A program made the translations under genes and the position numbers. Below the pieces are notes generated by a model that saw only the letters and a program-made list of their open reading frames with translations, did no database searches and was not told where the DNA came from. Of a DNA stretch of 64,000 bases, positions 17,895 to 64,000 are shown piece after piece (positions within the stretch are counted from its first letter, which is position 1; the number at the start of each line of letters is the position of its first letter). This DNA is from Glaucostegus cemiculus. Taxonomy: Eukaryota. The DNA lies in assembly GCA_976551045.1 (NCBI GenBank), contig CDPCPM010000026.1, forward strand, positions 6,386,001-6,450,000. Direction: 5' to 3'.

Positions 17895-17976
17895 AAATGA
17901 CCTGATGGAAGCCCATCAGCCTGAAACATTGACTGTGTGTCCTGATGCTGTCTGACCGGCTGAGTATTTCCAGCAG
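17895..17976 (+). mobile_element. Penelope terminal-repeat fragment with decayed hammerhead-like core
   Basis: CCTGATGGAAGCCCATCAGCCTGAAACATTGACTG...GATGCTGTCTGACCGGCTGAGTATTTCCAGCA. Confidence 0.65.
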
Positions 17977-17982
17977 TAAAAT

Positions 17983-19794
17983 GGCGACACAAGAGATTGC
18001 AGATGCTGGAATCTGGAGCAAAAAACAAGCTGCTGGAGGAACTCAGTGGGTCAAGCAGCATTCATGGAGGGAAATAGATGACATTTTGGGCTGAGACCCT
18101 TCATCTGAACACAAAAAGTAGAAGGGAAGTAGCTGGTGTCAAAAGACAAGGGGAAGGGATGGGCCAAGAGCTGGCAAGAGATAGGTGGATCCACATGAGG
18201 AGAGGTTGATTGGTAGATGGAAATCTCTGGGGGAGGGAAGGATGGAGATAGCGACAGAGGCTGGAAGGTGATACGTGGAGACAACAAAGGGCTGCAGATT
18301 ATGAAATCTGATAAGAAAAGCAGATGTAGAGTGGAACCAGATTAGGGAGGTGGAATGAGCGGGTGGGAACAGTGGGAGGAGCGTGTGGGTAATGGGCAGA
18401 TGGAGTAGGTGGGGGAGGGGAAAGAAACCGGGAGTTGGGGGCTGGGGTGGGATGGGGGGCAGTTGGAAAGAAGGGTCTGTGTGAGAGGACCTGGCTAGAT
18501 CACAGGAAGAAGGAGAGAGAAAGGGACAAAGGAGGAGCAGGTTACCTTAAATAGTATAATTGTAGATGATTCAGGTGGAATATTAGGTGCAGTGCTTCTG
18601 GTTTGTGATTGGCCTCACCCTGGCAGTGTAGGAAGCCGAGGACAGACATTTGGTGTGGGAATGGGAAGGGGAATTAAAATGGCTGACAATCAGCAGCTCC
18701 AGATGGCCACTGTGGACACATCGCAGGTGCTCAGCAAAGTGGTTGCCTGGTCTTCGCATTGTCTCACCAACGTAGAGAAGCCTACACCAAGAACACTGAA
18801 TGCAATAGGCGAGGGTAGAGGAGGTGTATGTGAACTCTATTTTAGGGTTGCTGGAGGAAGTGCCTAGGGAGTGGGAAGGATGAGCAAACCAGGAAGTCAT
18901 GGGAAGGGGTGGGAAGGGAAGATGTCACTGGGTGGTGGGATCACATTGCGGTTGGAGGAAATATCGATTGGTGACATGCTGGATGTGGAGGCTGGTGTGG
19001 TGAAAGGTAAAGACTAAGGGAACTCTATCCTTGTTCTATATGGGGGAAGATATGGTGAGAGGAGAAGTGTAGGAAATGGAGGAGATGTGGGTGAGGGCTC
19101 CATCACCTCCAGTATGGGGGAAGCCATGTTCCCTGAAAAAGGAGGACATCCCAAATAACCTGCAGTGGAAGGCCTCGTCTTGAGAACAGATACAACAGAG
19201 ATGGAGAAACTGAGAGAAAGGGATGATGCCCTTACAGGGTGGGAGGAGGGTTAGTGTAGGTAGTTGTGGGAGGAGATGTGTTTGTAGGAAACACTGTAGT
19301 AAACATCAGTGACAGCTCATCTCCTGAGATGGAGACAGAGATATCAAGAAAGGGGAGAGAGGTGTCAGAGATGACCAAATGACTTTGAGGGCAGGGTGGA
19401 AGTTGACAAATTTATACAGCTAGGTAGCACCAATGCAGTCGTCAGTGTAGCAGAGAAAGAGTTGAGGAGTGGTGCCAGAGTAGGTTTGGAACATTGTCTG
19501 CTCCACATAGTCAATGAAAAGTTAGGCATAATTAAGGCCAATGCAAGTCCCCATGGCTACTCATCTGATTTGTAGTAAGTGAGAGGAATCAAAAGAGAAG
19601 TTGTTCAGGGTAAGAGCAAGTTCTTTCAGGTAGAGGAGAGTGTTAGTAAGGGAGAACTGGTTTGATCTATGCCCTGGAATGAAATGGAGAGCCCTAAGGC
19701 CTTCCTGATGGGGAATGGAAATGTATAGAGACTGGATGTCCATGGTAAACATGAGGCTGTGGGGGCCAGGAAATTAGAAGTTGTTGAAATGGTG
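17983..19794 (-). mobile_element. Penelope-like retroelement, 5'-truncated: RT, GIY-YIG endonuclease and 3' terminal repeat (pseudogenised)
   Basis: RT motifs FTMDIQSLYISIPHQEGLRAL and LALTLNNFSFDSSHLLQIR*VAMGT; GIY-YIG region FTYTSSTLAYCIQCSWCRLLYVGETMRRPGNHFAEHLR; terminal repeat at 17983-18110. Confidence 0.93.
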
Positions 19795-21139: not shown

Positions 21140-21232
21140 CAACACACAAAACTCAGGAAGAACTCAACAGGTCAGGCAGCATCTATGGAGGGAGATGGAA
21201 AGTCAACATTTTGGGTTGAGATTCTTCATCTT
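21140..21232 (-). mobile_element. Solo Penelope terminal-repeat fragment
   Basis: ACACACAAAACTCAGGAAGAACTCAACAGGTCAGGCAGCATCTATGGAGG...GTCAACATTTTGGGTTGAGATTCTTCATC. Confidence 0.75.
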
Positions 21233-23774: not shown

Positions 23775-24014
23775 TAGGACACGCAAGAAATTCTGCAGGT
23801 GCTGGAATCTGGTGCAAAACACACAAATGCTGGAGGAACTCAGCAGTCAGGCAGCACCTGACTGAACTGAGGAATGAACAGTCAAAGTTTTGGGTCGAGA
23901 CCCTTCATCAGGATCATTGAGATCAGGTCGAGACCATTCATCCTGATTGAAGGGTCTTGACCCGATATGTTGACTGATGCTGCCTGACCTGCTGAGTTCC
24001 TCCAGCATTTTGTG
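23775..24014. mobile_element. Fold-back Penelope-derived mini-element with two opposed hammerhead-like cores
   Basis: Inverted arms ACACACAAATGCTGGAGGAACTCAGCAG...GGGTCGAGACCCTTCATCAGGAT and ATCCTGATTGAAGGGTCTTGACCC...CTGCTGAGTTCCTCCAGCATTTTGTGTGT; flanking direct repeat TGTATGACTCTAA at 23762-23774 and 24015-24027. Confidence 0.88.
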
Positions 24015-25059
24015 TGTATGACTCTAAAAGGGTTGTGAAAATACTACAGAGAATACAACTTTTCTTTGCTGTTTTTGACAGCAGTGTGCCATCCAAATAT
24101 TGTTCCCCTAAAGATGTGCTGAAGTGTCGTTGTACTGTGTGCCAGGAGCTGTTTTGGTCATGTGGAGACCAAAATAGCCATTGTACACGTACCTTCACCT
24201 GCCGTGGAGCACACCAAAGATAATGTGGCATTCCGGACCAGTGCCAAGGCTTAGGAGCTTGGGGGGAGAGAAGGTGATGGAAATAGCTGGCAGGATGTAC
24301 AGTAGCCTGTGGCCCTGTGCTGGAGGGGATGGGGTTGCTGACCAGAGAATGACACGGTGTGAGAGGGGATCTGTGGTTTGCTCAGTGAGTCGTGGGGTCA
24401 GAGAGATCAAGGGTTGGTGCCTGGGCTAATGAATGAAGAACATTTCACAGAGAGATTGTTACCATAACTTGGGGGGTGGGTGCTTGCAGAGGGGTTGTTG
24501 GGAGTCCTGAAGTAAACGAGACAAGTACTGGGATTTAATTGAATGCTGTGCTGGCTCTGATTAATTAAAACTTACTTGTTCTGGGGGTACCTCTGAAAAG
24601 AAGGTGTGCAACCTGCCCTGGGGATTCTCCAGAAGGAGAGTTGTGTGGGGAGTGATGTCACTTGATATGCATCTCGCACGGAAATGGTAACAGATTCATT
24701 AGGGGATTTCGCACCTATAAAGGGACTTCCAGTGATAAGATTCAACACCCTCAAAAAACTATGATTTCATACCTGTAATAACTAACTAAATTTTAAGAAA
24801 TCTGACAATTTATTACAGCTTCACAATTGTCATGATATTTTTACTGATGGTTTTTGCAATCGTCACAACTGAATTACTGACGATTTAAATAGGATTCAGA
24901 AATAGTGTCAACATTGAAACAGAGATAAATTTCCTCTTATCCCTTCCTCTGAGACTGCATTTAAACTGTCGTTTCAAGTTTGAAGCTGTTAGACACAGAA
25001 TCACTTCACAATTAGGAATCCTGATTTACTTTGACCAGTTATTAAACTGGGTGGAATTG

Positions 25060-31958: not shown

Positions 31959-32681
31959 ATGGGTTTGAATATTAAGTTGGGTGTACAATAAGATTTAATA
32001 TGGTACTGTGTGTTACACCTTGAATAACAGCTATCCCTCAACTTACAGTTGCTGTCTGTTCAGAGAAGGGAGTAATTTCTCTCATATAGTTTTCTGAGAA
32101 TAGGAAGTTAGCGAAGTTAGTGCACCTTGAAAAATTCTTACATGGTTTGCTACAACCATAAGGGGGCTAAGGTTTGGTTTCTTACAATAATATACAGCAA
32201 AGATTGGGAATCAAAATCAAAATGTGATCAAATGCATTGAGTTCTTTGTGGCACCCTAAACTGGAAATTTGTTCAAAAAACATAAAAATCAAGTTAAAAG
32301 TCTCACCAAAGAAATAATCTTTTTGCTTTCATGCATTGGCTTACCTTTTGTGTAATCTGAATATTTTTTTCATTTTATTTTTTGGCATTACAGTTGATTT
32401 AGAATTCATTGTTGGTTTACTGGGAGTGAAGTGGGAAGTGGCAACATGAATTTTATTGATATACGCAGAATAAGACAAGACTGGTGCTGCGATGTAATGG
32501 GCCGGAACATATTGACGACATGCCAACTATTCATTGAGAATCACCGGCTAACTGCAGTAGGTAGCATATTTTGCAGTTCCGCACAGTGCATTCAAATGGT
32601 AAATTTAAGTAAGTCTTTATTTCTCTTTATGTGTATCTTTTTAAAAATTAGCAACAGTTCAATGTGTTTAAAATAAATTCA

Positions 32682-32872
32682 GAGACGCAAGAGACTGCAG
32701 ATGCTGGAATCTGGAACAACAATCTGCTGGAGGAACTCAGCAGGTCAAGCAGCATCTGTGAGAGGAAAGGAATTGTCAATGCTTTGGATCGAAAGGTCTT
32801 CAACCTGAAACACCGACAATCCCTTTCCTCCCACAGACGCTGCTCAGCCCAGCGACTTCCTCCAGCAGATGG
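32682..32872. mobile_element. Fold-back Penelope-derived mini-element
   Basis: Arms TCTGCTGGAGGAACTCAGCAGGTCAAGCAGCATCTGTGAGAGGAAAGGAATTGTC and GACAATCCCTTTCCTCCCACAGACGCTGCTCAGCCCAGCGACTTCCTCCAGCAGA; flanking direct repeat TAAAATAAATTCA at 32669-32681 and 32873-32885. Confidence 0.88.
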
Positions 32873-36942: not shown

Positions 36943-37050
36943 GACATAACAGAGTGCAGATGTTGGTATCTGGTCCAGTCTTGACACAAAATGATGACTG
37001 TGCATTTCCCTCTGCAGATGCTGCCTGACCCAATCAGTTCCTCCAGCAAG
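36943..37050. mobile_element. Short inverted Penelope terminal fragments
   Basis: GACATAACAGAGTGCAGATGTTGGTATCTGG (minus terminus) abutting GTCTTGACACAAAATGATGACTG...GATGCTGCCTGACCCAATCAGTTCCTCCAGCA (plus). Confidence 0.65.
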
Positions 37051-37379
37051 TCATTTCACTGCTCATGAAAAATATAGGCATGGTAACAAAATCAATCGTC
37101 CATACGCACAATGTATGTAATAGTTTCAATTAAATATTTTTTGTTAACGTGGAAAGGTATGATTGGTCATAGTCCCTCAGGACAAGTCCATATTTTTATA
37201 CAAATTCTGCAAGGCTCAGACATGGCAGGTCAGTGCTCTCTCTCATAGCTGTCTCCCTGGATGCTTTCTCTCTGCATTTGCTCTTCTGTTTCCCATCTCC
37301 ATCCCTTTCCCTTTGCTTTACTTCTTCTAGCTCTTTTTGCACCACCTTGTCTTCTTTCTTTTCAGATGGGAGTTGTTTC

Positions 37380-37585
37380 AGACCATCATTGTCAATAGGA
37401 TAAAGAAACAGATCAGAACTGCAAGACAACAATTCTATTGGGTATTATATGAATTGTTGTTCCTCTAGTTTGTATTTTGCCTCACCCTGGCAGTGGAGGA
37501 GGCTGAGGACAGTATGTCAGCATGGGAATAGGGAAGAGAATTAAAATGGCTGGTAATCAGGAGCTCCAGACAGCCGTGGTGGATC
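37380..37585 (-). mobile_element. Penelope GIY-YIG-region relic
   Basis: GCCTCACCCTGGCAGTGGAGGAGGCTGAGGACAG...GGGAATAGGGAAGAGAATTAAAATGGCTGG is paralogous to 18610-18700. Confidence 0.7.
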
Positions 37586-46529: not shown

Positions 46530-48560
46530 ATGTGGTGCACAGTGCAACATTGCAAACAGCAGTCAAGCTAGCCATTGTTGTAACAGACAATGAAAATGAG
46601 CCAATTTTAATGGGGTAGGACTGGCTCAAACAACTCCAGCATAATTGGATTATGTTTTCAGTGCTGACTCAGGACTTGACATATTGTTGGAAGGATATGG
46701 TGATCTGTTGAAAGGCAGCTTTACTTGAATAATTGGGTACAAAGTGTATATTTGCATCAGACATAGCAATGTAAATCTACTGCAAGCTCAGACTAATCCT
46801 TTTTGTTCCAAAGAGTCATATTGAGAAGGAGCTGGATAAGTAAGAACAAAATGATGTGCTTGGGAAACGAGGCCAATGGGCAGTTGTATGCAATACAAAC
46901 AAAACTATGTGGCTACGGGGGCACTACAAAGTCAGATTAAATCGTGCTATAGGTGATGAACAACATCCACTATCCACATTGCAAGAACTGTAAGCAGAGT
47001 CAAAGGTATTCCCAAAATTGGACCTCTCCCATGTCTATAGATGATTGAATGTTAACAAAGAAAGCAATAAACATGCACAAAGAGTTCCATTCATACACAA
47101 GAAGTCAAGCCTTTGCCTTATATTTTCCAAGCCATGATAGACAAAATCTTGCAAGAAGGAGATAATTGCTTATGCAACTAAGATGATCTGTTGATTGCCA
47201 TGAGTACAGAAGAAGAAAATCTGCTTTTGGCAGAGATTATATGACTGTAGACAACAGTAGACCGAAGACCCATACTCCAGAACTGGCTGGGGTCATCAAG
47301 AGAACAAAGATGATCAATTCTTCTATTGCAGAGCGAGCACACAAGCAAGCTTAGGAGTCCTAAACCATAAGCTCTGTACAGATGCTCTGTAGCAAATACT
47401 ACATGAAAATTCTAACGTTGGAAGTGAAAATGGAATTTAAACATTAAATGCCAATGTCCACAGACATTGAACAGAACTTGATGTATAGATAACGAACAAT
47501 CATTCCACAATCATCACACCGTGACGTTATGTCAGCAAAGGTATATCGCATGGGCTTAAAGAGTGTTAATATCCATTAGTTGGAGAAGGAGCACTTTGGT
47601 AATTTGTAGAAGGAGGACCTTGGTCAACCTTCATGCTGAAATATGTAGGAACAGTCAATCTGAAAGTAATTGCATGAAGCTTTTGGAGGATTAAGTTCAT
47701 CATTTCTACGTCAAGTTCTGTTCAATGTCTTTTTATTGGCCTGGTTTGGAGAGTGACCTTCAGTCATGGATAAGCAAAATCAGTATCTATGAAAGTTGTA
47801 GAAGGAAGTCACCAAAAGCATATTTTCCATCATGTGCTTCTGGGTATTTTCATAGAGTACATGTGGACATTTGTGAGAAAGGGAATGACTATTTTCTGGT
47901 GTCGATCATGAGGCACTCAAAGTGGATTAAAGTGAAATGCACACCATGTTCATATAGTACCTCTGACCATTGTATAGATGAGTTGAGATCTACATGTGCA
48001 ACCTGTGACTTACCTGAAGTGTTCACTTCTGGCCATGGTCTTCACTTTCAATCTGCTCTATTCACAAGTTTCTTAACATGGATTGGTATCAAGCATACTC
48101 TCATTCCTTCACATCATCCAGCTTCAGACAGAAAGTCAGTCAGAATAGTTAAAGGAACTCTCCAGAAGCAAGTGCTGCAGGGATATTCAAAACAGCATAA
48201 AACATCATTTGGCTAATATCTTGTTGAAGTACAGAAGATCTCCACCCACTCCCACTCCCACATATTATACACCTGCAGAACTCTTCACAAAGAAAAGTTT
48301 GAGACCATGCTTGGGGCACATTCAACCAATTTTACCTTCTGTAGTTGACAGTCGAGCCAAAGATCCCATTATGGCGTTAACTGGAATGAATTGAGGCTTC
48401 AAGGATAATGAACGTAGTTCTTAGCCCACCTACCAAGGCACACAAGTGGGTGGTAGGAATAGTTCTAAAGTTTGTGGAACCTAGGGATAATTGATTTTAA
48501 TTGGTGACAAGATCCAAAGTGTTCATGTATATCAAATGGTTTCTGCAGGAGACGTACAAG
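46530..48560 (+). mobile_element. Gypsy/Ty3 (Mag-like) LTR-retrotransposon pol relic: protease end, RT and integrase
   Basis: PILMG*DWLKQLQHNW (protease C-terminus); LRGHYKVRLNRAI..EQHPL...KVFPKLDLSHVY and IFQAMIDKILQ...N*DDLLI (RT); YWPGLESDL...RVHVD...HSKWIKV...LPEVFTSGHGLHFQS...GIKHTLIPSHHPAS (integrase, 47725-48216); KWVVGIV...HVYQM at the C-terminus. Many stops, an internal deletion, and no LTRs found. Confidence 0.9.
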
Positions 48561-59209: not shown

Positions 59210-59840
59210 CATTTGTTCCTCTGTTCCGGTGAATCAACTCTTGAAGGAGAGAGTGATCTACAGAATGCAATAGATCAGGTTGGAGGAGATGCATGTGAGT
59301 TTCTGCCTCACCTGGAAGGGCTGTTTAGTCCCTCAGATGGCGGTGAGGGACAAGATGAAGAGACACGTATTTCACCTTGTATGGGTGTAGGGGAAAGCGC
59401 CAGGGTGTGGTGGGAAGACATGAGCGGACCAGGAAGTCATGGAGGGAGTGGTCCCTGCAGAAAGCAGAAAGGATGGGAGATGAGAAGATGTGAGTGGTGG
59501 GGAGATCCTATTGGAACAGGTGGAAATGGTGAAGGATGATGTGCTGGATGCGGAGGCTAGCAGGGTGAAACATGAGGACAAAGGGGACTCTTATGTTCTG
59601 TGTGTAGGGGCGGGGGTGAGTGGGTTGGTGAGGGCAGATACGTGAGAAATGGAGGAACTGCATTTGAGGGATCCATCAACTATGGCAGAGGGGAAGCCAC
59701 ATTGCTGGAAGAAGAAGAAGGGCATTTCAAAAGTCCTGGAGCAGAAAGCCTTGTCTTGAGAACAGATGCAGTGGAGGCAGAGAAACGGAGACAAAGGGAT
59801 GGCGTCCTTACGGGAGGCAGGGTGGGATGAGATGCAACAA
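59210..59840 (-). mobile_element. Penelope RT thumb/linker relic
   Basis: SSHPASRKDAIPLSPFLCLHCICSQDKAFCSRTFEMPFFF..CGFPSAIVD; paralogous to 18830-19250. Confidence 0.88.
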
Positions 59841-62800
59841 CTATGATAATTCTTTGAATATGACAGAAAGACTTCTATGAGAGTATTGCGAACAACGGCT
59901 TTCATTGGTAACCTTTCAGACAAGGATCCTTTAAGATTATCTCTCAAATAAAAAGAGTTAACAGTGCAGATTTAGTTAAGTCGTATTTCTCTTTCATCTT
60001 GATAAATGCCAGTTGCTCAGCAGGACTTAGATTCAACTCCCTAAATTCACTACACCCTATTCTCATGCACAATGACAGGAAAATCAGAATTTATTAAGAC
60101 TTTGCACAATGTGTGTAATGTTTCCTTTGAAAATGCGATCTCTAATCAGTTTCGGTTGAATCCAAAACTTAGCGATTTGCACAACCCAGATTTCCACCGC
60201 TAGGTAAAAGTTAAAAGTTGTAAAATGACAAACCAGAACATCTCAGCTGGTTACAGCCACATCCTATGGGAGGTTAACCAACAGATTTATGTAAGCAGTT
60301 GATACCTATTCAAAACTTCATTGGGAAGGAATACATCAAATTCTTATAAGAATGAAGATATGATGGGAATATCCTTGAGCTGTCCCCTCTGTTCCAGATG
60401 TTACACAAATAGGAAAAATGTTTGAAAAACTGATTCAGCCTAAAGGATCCTGGCAGTCAGATCAAGGTTCAAATTTCCTTACATTTTTTAAAATTAACAG
60501 AAAGCAGAATGCCAATGCGATTACTCAAATTTTCATTATTAAGGTGATCTATGTCATCGTAAAGGATTCGTCTGCCATAACATAGAACCAAGCAGACACA
60601 TTTACAAGCTCTCAGACTTTATTTGATACAGATACAACATTTTCCAAGGATATTGTAAACTCTAGCATTGATTCCACAACAGAAAAAAAATTGTATTTTT
60701 AGAAGTTTTGAAACATAGCTGGGGGCTTCAAGAGATGAATTTCTATCTCCTTTTCGAAATATTATACTACCCTGATCCATCTTATCTGCGCCAGCAAATA
60801 CAGCCTTTGCCAAATTAAGAATAATTACAGTTTGTATCTGGTTCCATGAAATTATAGTTCTTCTGAGTTTGAAAGGAAGTAAATTGAAGTAACTGTAAGA
60901 ATAGCCTGTTTATCAAGATCATTCTTTTTCTTCTTATGGCTATATTTAGGGGATCAAAAGTCTTTAAAAAATTGAAAAATGAATCGCAAGATTGTTATTT
61001 GCAATGCAACTTGAGACAATCATTGGGGCAGATTTTTGTCTTCTGTGCCTAGTCATCTGGTGGAAATCAATGAAAACGAGGTGGTTTTTAAAAAGAATAG
61101 ATGATCCACTCCACCAAGTAACTGCCCAGGCAGCCAATGAGTCTTAAAGTAAGGAGGAGGACCCAACAATAAAATAAAAAATGAGCAGGTTAAAGGCTGG
61201 GTTCTCTGCAATAAGTAGCTTAATTGCTGATCTCCCTAAACTACTCCATTATCTATAAAGGTGGGATGAGAAGGACCCAGTAACCTGCCTAGTTGTAAGG
61301 CATTTGATCAGTTTCCACTCACTGTACTTCATATCCCACCCTGCATCACCAGTGAGTTGCAACTGCAGTACTTCTATCTACACAACGCACAAGAGCAATT
61401 CATTGCTCTTCCTTTGAAAATACCTCACAGTTCCGCAAACTCTACAAATGAGGAGGTCAGGAAGCACCTTGAAACCACACAGCAACCTGATCTGAATATT
61501 GGCTATTATGTTAAAATCCTTGAATTTACCATGTGCCAATCCCTTTACCACCAGCAATATGCCTGTTCAGGAAAATGCCCAACACCATTTTCCCAGAGTA
61601 ACTTGGGATGGGGGATAAAAAATGTCAGCCTGGTCCAGTATTCCCAGATCTCAGGAGCAGCTTTTTATTAAATAACACAGATAGTTTTGCTTATTGTACC
61701 TTCAGCACCAGTGGGTGGAGCTCACCACTAATTTCATAAGCATGTTGCAGCAGGCATCCTCTCTAACTATCTTATTCATTAAATTTCAGGCTGTATTGCA
61801 ATGAGTATTTTTCTAAAGGAAACCGTATGGAAAATCTAAGCGATATGAGTCTTGTATGGTGTGCCAGGCTTTATAAATTAAATTGAAAGCACTGGTGGTA
61901 ATTTACAGATAATTATCCCTTCTGGCTGTATGCATTAAGCTTCTCGGTATTTGCTACTGATCTCTGTAACTGCTAATCTCCCAATACTTAAGGTGTCAGG
62001 TTTTCTTTTGATGTTATAAAATATGTTGACTCTCATTTTTCATCAGGCCTGCATTCCAGGTAACACAATTATATTCTTACATTTTTAAAGCAGCATGTCC
62101 CACAAATTATAATGTTTATTCCTGGAGCCTTCATTAAAATAACAATGTCGTGAAAAACTGCGAACAGAAGCAATCCAATGTTGAAGAGGCAGTCCACTAT
62201 CTTAAAATATTTAAACTGAGCTTATGTTTTATTCAGGCATTGACTGATTATACCTACCCTGAATATATGCGGAAAAAAACTTTGCAGAAATCTGGAATGA
62301 GAACTACCAGTTATGTCCAGCTTCTAATTTGCTAAATTCAAATTATTGTTTGGTGCATATATTAGGCTACCAAAATTATTTATGGTATACTTACAACTTA
62401 CATCTTCCTTATTTTCAGAGCTGCATTTCTTTCAGGAACTTGTTGCTTCAATGAATATTCTAAGAAAAAATAAAATTAGAGTGGAACTGTAATGTCCCAT
62501 TCTGTGTAGTAGGAAGATGTGGATTTATAACAGCAGTCTCTTGTGAAATAGGATTCTGGTCTCTGCCACAAAGACCAGTTTCCCACAAATAGGGAACTAA
62601 GATTGGAACTTCAGCTCCCAAGAATCAATGTGAAGGGCTTAGGGGGATGTGAGATCTCCAACCTTCTGTCTAGAAGTTGTGTAATAAGTAAGATTATTTT
62701 CCAACAATAAAGCTGGAAAAGAGGAATTGAACTATTTATTTAACAATTCATTTGCATATGTTTGGTTTTTGCTTCTGTTGTACAAATGATGCATCCACGT

Positions 62801-63209
62801 CTTTGTACCATTTGTGGTTATCCTGTGATTTACACTGGAGAACATGGTTCAATGCAAAGCAGTTTAAAATAGTTTCCTAGACAGGATATTACATTTTTCG
62901 TCTTCTGTGAACTTAAGTGTCAGACAAGAGATGAACCATCATTTTCTTGCTGATGTGTAACTGAATAAATGTGAATGATGGCAACATCAGTGGCCCTTAA
63001 TTATCTAAAATGAATTAAACTGGGATACTTGTGAGGTAGGCAGAGAATGGCTATTTTGTGTCGATTTTCTGTAAACTTTTCTGCAAACTATCTTTGCAAT
63101 TTTGTTTGAATAAAAACTATTTTGTCCCAGGGAGTTCATCTTAAGCTCCTAGTCATGGCTTGTCTTAGAACTCTGACCCAAGGGAATGAGAGCAGCACAA
63201 TGTGGATAA

Positions 63210-63413
63210 CAGAGAAACAAAGATGCCAGAATCTAGATGAAAGACACTATGATGCAGGCCAGACAGCATCCATGGAGAAAAGTAGGCAGTCAACATTTCA
63301 GGTCAGGACTCTTCTTCAGGACTGATATGGACTAAAGAAGGGTCCTGACCTGAAACGCTGACTGCCTGCTTTTCTCCACAGATGCTGCCTGGCCTGCTGA
63401 GTCCCTCCAGCAT
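63210..63413. mobile_element. Fold-back Penelope-derived mini-element with the best-preserved hammerhead-like core
   Basis: Arms 63254-63319 and 63332-63397 are reverse complements (~65 bp, about 8 mismatches); flanking direct repeat CACAATGTGGATAA at 63196-63209 and 63414-63427. Confidence 0.9.
63287..63324 (-). ncRNA. Minimal type I hammerhead-ribozyme-like motif (PLE-associated)
   Basis: Minus strand reads CAGUC-CUGAAGA-A-GAGUC-CU-GACCU-GAAA-UGUU-GACUG: stem I CAGUC/GACUG, CUGANGA and GAAA cores, imperfect stem II and vestigial stem III. Confidence 0.6.
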
Positions 63414-63529
63414 CACAATGTGGATAATCCCCTTTTCCAAATCAGAATAGAATAGTTATGAATGCAGCCAAATGGAGGTGTACCTTATACTAAAACAGGA
63501 CTTCAAATATGCCAAAATGTAAAACAAAC

Positions 63530-63920
63530 AGCAGATGCTTGAAAAACTGAACTAAAACAGAAAAACGGGCAACTGGAAGCTCAAGGTCACTTGTCTGACA
63601 AATTAATTGTTCATCTTATTCTCACTCTGATCTCTGCACCTTTGGCCTCTTACATTTTTCCAATGAACCCCAGTGTAAGCTCAAGGACTAACATTTCACC
63701 TTCCAACCAAATATGCTGCAACCCTCAGGACTCAAGATCTCAAGATTAAATTCAACAACATCAGATTATCAGCCTTTCAAGTTTGTATCAGAAAAGGCCA
63801 GTTCTGATGAAAGGTCATCAACCTGTGATATTAACTCTGTTCTTCTCTTTCCAAAGATACTCTTTAATCTGTTAAGTATTTCCAGCATTCCCTTTCATTT
63901 CAGATTTCCAGCAACTGTAG
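63530..63920. mobile_element. Penelope 3' end/terminal repeat relic
   Basis: CCAGTTCTGATGAAAGGTCATCAACCTG...TTAACTCTGTTC...GTATTTCCAGCATTCCCTTTCATTTCAGATTTCCAGCAACTG. Confidence 0.7.
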
Positions 63921-64000
63921 TTCCTATGTCTCACAGTTCCAGCATTTCTTGTTTTCTCTCTCTTCTGTTCTCATTGAAAACCTATTTAAATCTTCTCCAG

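What the first reader, a model, noticed from the sequence alone, without database searches (positions are those of the whole stretch)
63196..63427. Self-complementary Penelope mini-element carrying two opposed hammerhead-like cores and a 14-bp flanking duplication
Seen in sequence: a 204-bp insert between exact copies of CACAATGTGGATAA. It consists of a complete PLE 3' terminus in minus orientation fused to an inverted, truncated copy of itself. The minus arm holds CAGUC CUGAAGA A GAGUC CU GACCU GAAA UGUU GACUG, and the plus arm holds a mutated copy (CUAAAGA A GGGUC CU GACCU GAAA CGCU GACUG). Established: PLE terminal repeats contain minimal type I hammerheads that lack a stable helix III and are proposed to cleave as dimers, and PLE insertions often have inverted 5' segments. 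Inference: this is either a non-autonomous, retrozyme-like unit mobilised by a PLE RT/GIY-YIG, or a stereotyped insertion product. Transcription of either strand would give a long hairpin containing one sense ribozyme core base-paired to its own antisense copy.
Basis: partly seen in the sequence, partly recalled or inferred. Interest (0 to 1): 0.7.

Follow-up and report, generated by a model that had tools for sequence, protein, structure and literature searches.

The report
Two-template Penelope stub, dead ribozymes
This 204-base mirror-image insert is one old, decayed landing of a common Penelope-type jumping gene rather than a self-spreading ribozyme, and its many sister landings show halves that stop at one fixed point and often differ in a source marker, which likely means each half was copied separately from its own RNA copy.

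Summary
The sequence description holds: 204 bp between exact 14-bp duplications, two head-to-head arms, two hammerhead-like cores. The retrozyme reading fails its own test. The insert is the 3' end of an abundant RT + GIY-YIG Penelope-like element (1,270 exact tail matches). Its junction is unique in the genome, sister junctions differ (21 kinds in 23), and the cores decay neutrally (4 of 46 sisters keep both). The plus core is dead (G5A, U16.1C, no helix I), and in either transcript both cores lie inside the long hairpin. The layout (inverted tail-less arm, tail, TSD) is published, and this scan noted the same kind in at least 10 other genomes. What the sisters add: short arms stop at a wall about 134 nt from the 3' end, at an initiator-like site 31 nt after a TATA-like box and just before the hammerhead (1 of 160 arms beyond it, about 20% expected). 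The two arms also differ at a source marker in 21 of 106 insertions, against 4-6 expected from mutation. Best reading: both target nicks primed separate cDNAs, often on different RNA copies. Ordinary locus, useful mechanistic clue.

The parts
63196..63209 (.). Target-site duplication, left copy (14 bp)
   Evidence: Exact repeat; family TSDs are 12-16 bp in 54 of 63 detected
63211..63325 (-). Tailed arm: PLE 3' end from the terminus (el 0) to about el -136, with internal deletions of 8 and 14 nt
   Evidence: Alignment to the in-script family consensus; deletion letters seen in reads
63211..63236 (-). The PLE 'tail' (el 0 to -33), present on one arm only
   Evidence: Short arms end at el -28..-42 in 72 of 101 sisters, mode -34; 30-40 bp tail described in PMC8557442 and PMC11167929
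63287..63324 (-). Minimal type I hammerhead relic; core letters intact, helix II weakened (G-121A, C11.1U), palindromic ACGU lost (C15.2U); predicted cut between 63292 and 63291
63326..63331 (.). 6-nt junction filler; it recreates a 5-nt direct repeat of the end of the tailed arm (a templated insertion is inferred)
   Evidence: junction unique in the genome
63332..63413 (+). Tail-less inverted arm, el -130 to about -47, with about 2 nt of microhomology into the right TSD
63332..63364 (+). Dead hammerhead relic: G5A, U16.1C, C11.1U, no 5' strand of helix I
63414..63427 (.). Target-site duplication, right copy (14 bp)

Best explanation
The insert is a single old insertion of two head-to-head copies of the 3' end of an RT + GIY-YIG Penelope-like element, likely built at landing when both nicks of a staggered target cut primed reverse transcription separately, likely often on different RNA copies. 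Shown: family membership, TSD, tail asymmetry, independent junctions, neutral decay, a wall of arm ends at el -130 to -135, and marker discordance between arms. Inferred: (1) the endonuclease nicks both strands 12-16 nt apart; (2) one nick primes at the tail end (el 0), the other at the inner start site (about el -34, here about -47, helped by 1-3 nt of pairing); (3) each cDNA runs toward the 5' end of an RNA that starts at the pLTR initiator (el -134), right before the hammerhead, and stops there or earlier, like a strong-stop cDNA; (4) the two cDNA ends are joined by end-joining, with microhomology or filler. The two opposed hammerheads are passengers: they appear when both cDNAs run to the wall.
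For: Partner ORF: 525-aa frame with RT, a C-X4-C-X2-C linker and GIY-YIG directly upstream of this repeat. 53 of 90 tail-selected copies have an inverted arm, 31 with a TSD; their lengths run from 96 to 2,038 bp and only 1 of 90 is a two-core mini. Fixed outer ends and TSDs in 63 of 101 short palindromes, control 2 of 300. PMC11167929 (main text and part of the methods read) shows a PLE protein nicking and extending both strands, two RT start sites that bound the tail, a predicted dimer, and no need for hammerhead cleavage. Wall: 34 of 160 arms end at -134..-130 and 1 of 160 beyond -140 (about 20% expected from smooth reach); in a longer size class 1 of 30 (42% expected). Arm reach is correlated, 16 short-short, 24 long-long, 13 mixed of 53, P 2.5e-4. 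TATA-like box at el -165 and initiator-like A at -134. Marker at el -45: 15 AA, 21 discordant, 70 C/T-C/T of 106, against 4-6 discordant from mutation and 39 if fully independent. Discordant insertions share 1 derived site in 1,292, concordant ones 31 in 5,225, P 0.013.
Against: The transcription start is inferred from motifs and arm ends only; RNA reads of a related species showed no place where many molecules begin or end. A natural 7-bp palindrome centred at el -132 could equally stop or nick arms there, and 3 of 23 junctions sit exactly on it. The two-template case rests mainly on one marker site; later DNA-to-DNA overwriting of a whole arm is not excluded. About half of the insertions are compatible with one template. 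This insertion itself is uninformative, because its short arm ends at the marker. 22 of 53 inverted copies and 38 of 101 short palindromes had no detectable TSD. The microhomology estimate (1.5 vs 0.4 nt) is partly circular, since TSD ends were set by best match.
Confidence: 0.62

Rival explanations
1. Fold-back or self-priming: one cDNA (or antisense template) snaps back at a local palindrome and copies itself, so the second arm is a copy of the first. This is the interpretation offered in PMC3846280 for head-to-head PLE junctions.
For: 3 of 23 junctions lie exactly on the intrinsic palindrome. Arms of one insertion are slightly more alike than arms of different ones, 90.2 vs 88.8%, 0 of 1,000 permutations. 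About half of the insertions are marker-concordant beyond chance.
Against: It predicts no marker discordance beyond mutation (4-6 expected, 21 seen, P < 1e-5). Most junctions are asymmetric, and 30 of 55 carry filler. It does not by itself attach a 3' end of the element to both sides of the TSD.
Confidence: 0.2
2. Same single-template origin, with one arm later overwritten by gene conversion from dispersed copies, and the wall caused by RT stalling or DNA nicking at the hairpin around el -132 rather than by an RNA start.
For: Thousands of donors exist. The hairpin is predicted at P 0.81 in read-through RNA, and its loop coincides with the peak of ends.
Against: It needs whole-arm conversion in about 45-50% of insertions. 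A per-arm stall would make arm lengths independent, but they are correlated, and 79 of 143 unbiased arms reach el -148 or further.
Confidence: 0.14
3. A non-autonomous, retrozyme-like mini-element that spreads as a unit through its own hairpin RNA and hammerheads.
For: Many sisters have similar length and two cores. Animal retrozymes derive from PLE pLTRs (bioRxiv 10.64898/2026.07.22.740005; abstract, introduction, part of the methods and passages read).
Against: Those searches were biased by a palindromic query. Junctions are individual, this one is unique, there is no same-arm excess of shared mutations in 5,050 pairs, and cores are not conserved (5.6 vs 4.6% divergence; G12 lost like any CpG; 4 of 46 keep both). 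Palindromes that break inside the cores outnumber two-core ones, 58 vs 23. The copies are inverted, not in tandem.
Confidence: 0.04

Closest known systems
EN+ Penelope-like element insertions with inverted 5'-truncated pLTR, one-sided 30-40 bp tail and TSD (Pen2a_Av, PMC3846280; general scheme, PMC8557442; passages read)
   Same: Head-to-head inverted arm, tail on one side only, TSD, TATA and initiator motifs in the pLTR, palindromes at some junctions.
   Different: No ORF and no second direct pLTR here; both arms are under 140 nt; TSDs are 12-16 bp against 8-10 bp in the rotifer cases; the published self-priming reading does not fit the marker-discordant arms.
Poseidon PAc of Anolis carolinensis in vitro (PMC11167929)
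   Same: Two fixed 3' ends bounding a tail, hammerhead in the pLTR, hammerhead dispensable for insertion.
   Different: This family has the C-X4-C-X2-C linker that Poseidon lacks. The paper does not address how inverted arms form or how many templates are used (in the parts read).
Minimal type I hammerheads of metazoan PLEs (PMC4209133, parts 1-2 of 4 read)
   Same: Extra base between 9 and 10.1, short helix I, no helix III, palindromic 15.2-16.2; that paper already reports dual motifs 100-700 bp apart on opposite strands.
   Different: Here both copies are mutated and locked in a long hairpin, and opposite-strand cores are not on the same RNA strand, so they cannot form the cis dimer.
Non-LTR (animal) retrozymes (bioRxiv 10.64898/2026.07.22.740005)
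   Same: Non-coding, PLE-derived, type I hammerhead, small.
   Different: Retrozymes are head-to-tail tandem units with a complete hammerhead in consecutive units; this is one inverted pair without a shared unit sequence.
L1 twin priming (recalled, not from a call)
   Same: Both target nicks prime cDNA and the products are joined in inverted orientation.
   Different: In L1 the two cDNAs copy different, non-overlapping parts of one RNA; here both copy the same 3' stretch, often from different source variants.

Membership tests
EN+ Penelope-like element | Single ORF with RT followed by GIY-YIG endonuclease in the parent family | tested here: met
   L111 3394-4968 minus, 525 aa, upstream of this repeat; GIY-YIG PF01541 E 1e-4 at the Pfam cut-off on L070; RVT_1 hits are weak, best E 1.9e-5, below the cut-off; 78 homologs, nearest from sharks and rays
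EN+ Penelope-like element | [quoted passage not shown] | tested here: met
   CxxC inside the GIY-YIG core and downstream histidines in L070, L079, L111 translations; definition from PMC8557442
EN+ Penelope-like element | Inverted 5'-truncated copy, one-sided 30-40 bp tail, TSD | tested here: met
EN+ Penelope-like element | Partial tandem (pLTR-ORF-pLTR) full-length copy | not tested
   The in-script reference reached 2.15 kb upstream of the tail only; the 5' part of the ORF was not traced
Neptune (or Nematis) clade | CX2-5CxxC linker between RT and EN | tested here: met
   C-X4-C-X2-C in L112, L120 and L122 frames; definition
Neptune (or Nematis) clade | RT phylogeny with reference clades | not tested
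   No named reference PLE proteins were fetched; Neptune is preferred because the preprint lists Neptune and Poseidon in vertebrates
Minimal type I hammerhead | Core boxes, NUH, helices I and II, palindromic 15.2-16.2 | tested here: met
   Met by the family consensus (fold P 0.86-0.90 for el -135..-97); only partly by the minus copy; not by the plus copy
Minimal type I hammerhead | Self-cleavage (dimer or protein-assisted) | not testable with these tools
   Needs an assay; no pile-up of arm ends at the cut site el -102
Non-LTR retrozyme | Head-to-tail tandem units each with a complete hammerhead | tested here: not met
   One inverted pair; no tandem units around it
Non-LTR retrozyme | A unit sequence shared by copies that spread as such | tested here: not met
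Non-LTR retrozyme | Circular or self-cleaved RNA | tested here: inconclusive
   Three ordinary RNA-seq runs of a related species; no defined ends; such libraries are not suited to the question

The most novel reading that the evidence does not exclude
The inverted arm of Penelope insertions is a second, independent cDNA: a dimeric RT/endonuclease primes both target nicks at the two start sites that bound the tail, on two RNA copies in at least about half of events, and the short class is paired strong-stop-like cDNAs that run off a Pol II start at the very first base of the hammerhead. The same start would act as a switch: RNA begun there can fold the ribozyme, read-through RNA hides its core in a hairpin.
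Probability: 0.45. Interest if true: 0.6.

Novelty: new member of a known kind. Interest (0 to 1): 0.33.

Why it matters
The locus itself is a neutral relic. Its sisters matter because the origin of the tandem/inverted structures of Penelope-like elements is described as undefined (PMC8557442, passages). A wall at the likely RNA start and frequent two-source arms give concrete predictions for the existing in vitro system (PMC11167929): mix two marked RNAs and look for hybrid inverted products. It also warns that opposed hammerhead pairs in genome scans are by-products, not a ribozyme device.

Tried and rejected
Rfam scan: no hammerhead family, only sub-threshold hits, mostly hairpin models. 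Retrozyme or MITE-like replication: rejected. Hammerhead-cleaved RNA as template: no spike of arm ends at the cut site; 9 ends in -104..-100 against 16 and 9 in the neighbouring 5-nt bins. My first reading of the 58/23/3 junction counts as a smooth decline was dropped once the wall was measured. An 'anti-ribozyme' role for the el -139..-124 hairpin is a folding prediction only. Long-arm insertions were too few (14) to test template sharing. No RNA holder was listed for the locus. RNA reads laid on it came from other family copies. No empty-site joint among the joints shown; 183 were not shown. A host gene beside the insertion was not identified: two exon-like frames at 62237 and 62421 had no Pfam match. 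Literature searches 'Penelope + twin priming' (3 papers, titles unrelated, listing only), 'Penelope-like / head-to-head / self-priming', a 2023+ structure search and a shark search (0 papers) found no paper proposing two-template priming; subscription papers and supplements were not seen, so this is not proof of absence. The paper on dimer cleavage of PLE hammerheads was not held; it is known here only through review passages in PMC6765202.

Full report
Coordinates 'el' count back from the element's 3' end (el 0), using a consensus built inside a script from fetched copies.

1. Observation. The 14-mer at 63196-63209 recurs exactly at 63414-63427 and nowhere else in the window, enclosing 204 bp. 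The arms at 63254-63319 and 63332-63397 are 88% complementary, and both strands fold far better than 200 shuffles (z -13.0 and -14.7). Against the family, the minus arm covers el 0 to about -136 with deletions of 14 and 8 nt, the plus arm covers el -130 to about -47, and 6 filler bases lie between them. No Rfam hammerhead model matched, but a relaxed motif scan finds the minus core as the window's only hit with a paired helix I.

2. The family. The insert matches thousands of places in its own genome (4,858 first-look candidates, 40 scored); a 40-nt tail stretch has 1,270 exact matches, control 0. At about 4.6% non-CpG divergence this implies on the order of 8,000 tailed copies (inference). 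Long copies carry, directly upstream of this repeat, an ORF with RT, a C-X4-C-X2-C linker and a GIY-YIG domain with internal cysteines. Its nearest named homologs come from sharks and rays. By the definitions in PMC8557442 (passages) this is an endonuclease-bearing Penelope-like element of the Neptune or Nematis type; no tree was built. No fully intact ORF was seen among the 150 scored matches (longest open frame 525 aa).

3. Anatomy of insertions. I took 90 of the first 100 listed tail matches, a set chosen without regard to what lies upstream. 31 have an inverted arm with a TSD, 22 an inverted arm without one, 5 a single arm with a TSD and 32 neither; the first group runs from 96 to 2,038 bp, and 1 of 90 is a two-core mini. 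In 101 short palindromes the tailed arm ends at el 0..-5 in 91, the other arm at el -28..-42 in 72 (mode -34), and a TSD was found in 63 (12-16 bp in 54; swapped-flank control 2 of 300). This is the published layout: inverted 5'-truncated copy, 30-40 bp tail on one side, TSD (PMC3846280 and PMC8557442, passages). PMC4209133 (parts 1-2 of 4) already reports pairs of minimal hammerheads on opposite strands.

4. Not a replicating unit. The junction of this insertion occurs once in 2.85 Gb; 7 one-mismatch hits are unrelated DNA, and the control pattern had 4 hits. Of 23 two-core junctions with exact anchors, 21 sequences are distinct; 3 identical ones lie on a natural palindrome. Palindromes that break inside the cores are commoner (58). 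Among 5,050 pairs of insertions, same-arm sharing of mutations equals the opposite-arm control. Core positions diverge 5.6% against 4.6% elsewhere, G12 is lost as often as other CpG bases (69% kept), and 4 of 46 two-core sisters keep both cores. At this locus the plus core has G5A and U16.1C and no 5' helix I strand; the minus core keeps its core letters but has a mismatch in helix II and has lost the ACGU palindrome. In either full transcript the hammerhead helices have probability 0.00. That G5 and U16.1 are required is established knowledge, recalled.

5. Age. Contigs from two other organisms follow the left flank at about 95-96% identity, enter the insert by 13 letters and go on for 18-23 more where the window has its own 8-nt deletion. 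This suggests the insertion predates their split, but it is below the tool's 31-letter bridging rule. It fits the 4-6% divergence of the arms.

6. A wall at the hammerhead's 5' edge. In 80 of the 106 palindromes found (160 arms), 34 arms end at el -134..-130 and 1 beyond -140; a smooth-reach simulation expects about 5% and 20%. In 15 of 25 longer palindromes, 1 of 30 arms passes -140 against 42% expected; ends read as -139 are probably over-extension through the palindrome. In the unbiased set arm reach is correlated (16 short-short, 24 long-long, 13 mixed; P 2.5e-4), so there is a short class bounded by the wall and a long class that is not. The consensus has a TATA-like box at el -165 and an initiator-like A at el -134; that this spacing is typical of Pol II promoters is recalled. 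There is no spike at the predicted cut site, el -102. I infer that short insertions copy RNA that starts at el -134. Rival: a 7-bp palindrome is centred at el -132. Against the start-site reading, RNA reads of a related species showed no defined ends, and the D. virilis promoter is described as TATA-less (PMC2377424, passages). Both arms of our insertion end at the wall, which is why it has two cores.

7. Two templates. Site el -45 is A in one source variant and C (decaying to T) in another; A arms rarely show the neighbouring CpG decay, 4 of 92 against 37 of 182. Exact-anchor counts gave 15 insertions with A on both arms, 21 with A on one and 70 with C/T on both. I fetched 20 of the 21 for this check: 18 are A against C/T, 2 are A against G, the A lies on either arm, and 11 have a TSD. 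Mutation alone predicts 4-6 discordant, full independence 39; both are rejected (P < 1e-5 and 1.4e-4), giving a mixed fraction of 0.45-0.49. Discordant insertions share 1 derived non-CpG site in 1,292, at the between-insertion baseline, while concordant ones share 31 in 5,225 (P 0.013), so the whole arm differs, not only the marker. A pure fold-back copy cannot give this. Two pLTRs on one tandem transcript, two RNAs, or later whole-arm conversion can. Our insertion's short arm stops at the marker and cannot be classed.

8. Mechanism. PMC11167929 (parts 1-2 of 4) shows a PLE protein nicking and extending both target strands, starting RT at two sites that bound the tail, predicted as a dimer, and not needing hammerhead cleavage. 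With sections 3, 6 and 7 the likely path is: staggered nicks; priming at el 0 and near el -34, the latter aided by short pairing (1.5 vs 0.4 nt, partly circular); run-off at or before the RNA start; end-joining with overlap (22 of 55), a blunt join (3) or filler (30); then neutral decay. The anatomy and counts are shown; the steps are inferred.

9. Verdict. A new instance of a known kind. The scan holds 72 notes with these words in at least 10 genomes, including twin priming (e1-9964995) and single-locus hints of two templates (e1-9979443, e1-9240057, e1-9134495); I did not re-check their loci and they are not independent support. My twin-priming reading was recorded before I saw them. The addition here is the population-level count. 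Interest 0.33.

Noticed in passing
Family consensus el -139..-124 (in the window only partly present, 63313-63325 minus): The bases just upstream of the hammerhead pair with its own 5' core box (predicted P 0.81) when the RNA extends upstream of el -139; RNA starting at -135 folds helices I and II instead (P 0.86-0.90). A possible on/off switch set by the transcription start.
   Followed up: partly
80 short palindromes, L254-L333: The arm that reaches the wall is the tail-less one in 26 cases and the tailed one in 11. Unexplained.
   Followed up: no
window 63790-63925: An older, more diverged PLE-like 3' end with a decayed hammerhead-like string, 360 bp downstream of the insertion; reads of the family pile on it.
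   Followed up: no
window 17944-19776, 21141-21230, 23793-24015, 32681-32769, 36978-37510, 59260-59837: Further relics of related PLE subfamilies, including ORF fragments at about 70% identity and at least two more inverted pairs (21.1-21.2 kb and 23.8-24.0 kb).
   Followed up: partly
L079, L089, L189: Some long insertions invert at one point with the inverted part continuing from the break (for example el -72 then -74 to -860), the non-overlapping L1-like pattern, unlike the overlapping arms of the short class.
   Followed up: no
window 47695-48216 +: Degraded integrase core (rve, E 1e-4, below cut-off), likely an LTR retrotransposon relic.
   Followed up: no
window 62237-62492 +, AATAAA at 62964 and 63109: Two exon-like frames with acceptor-like sites, the second ending in a stop, then polyadenylation-like hexamers; the insertion may lie just past a gene's 3' end. 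Gene not identified.
   Followed up: partly
Protein hits P0002, P0006, P0042, P0075: Several ray gene models named as host genes carry pieces of this PLE ORF, probably annotation read-through into the repeat.
   Followed up: no
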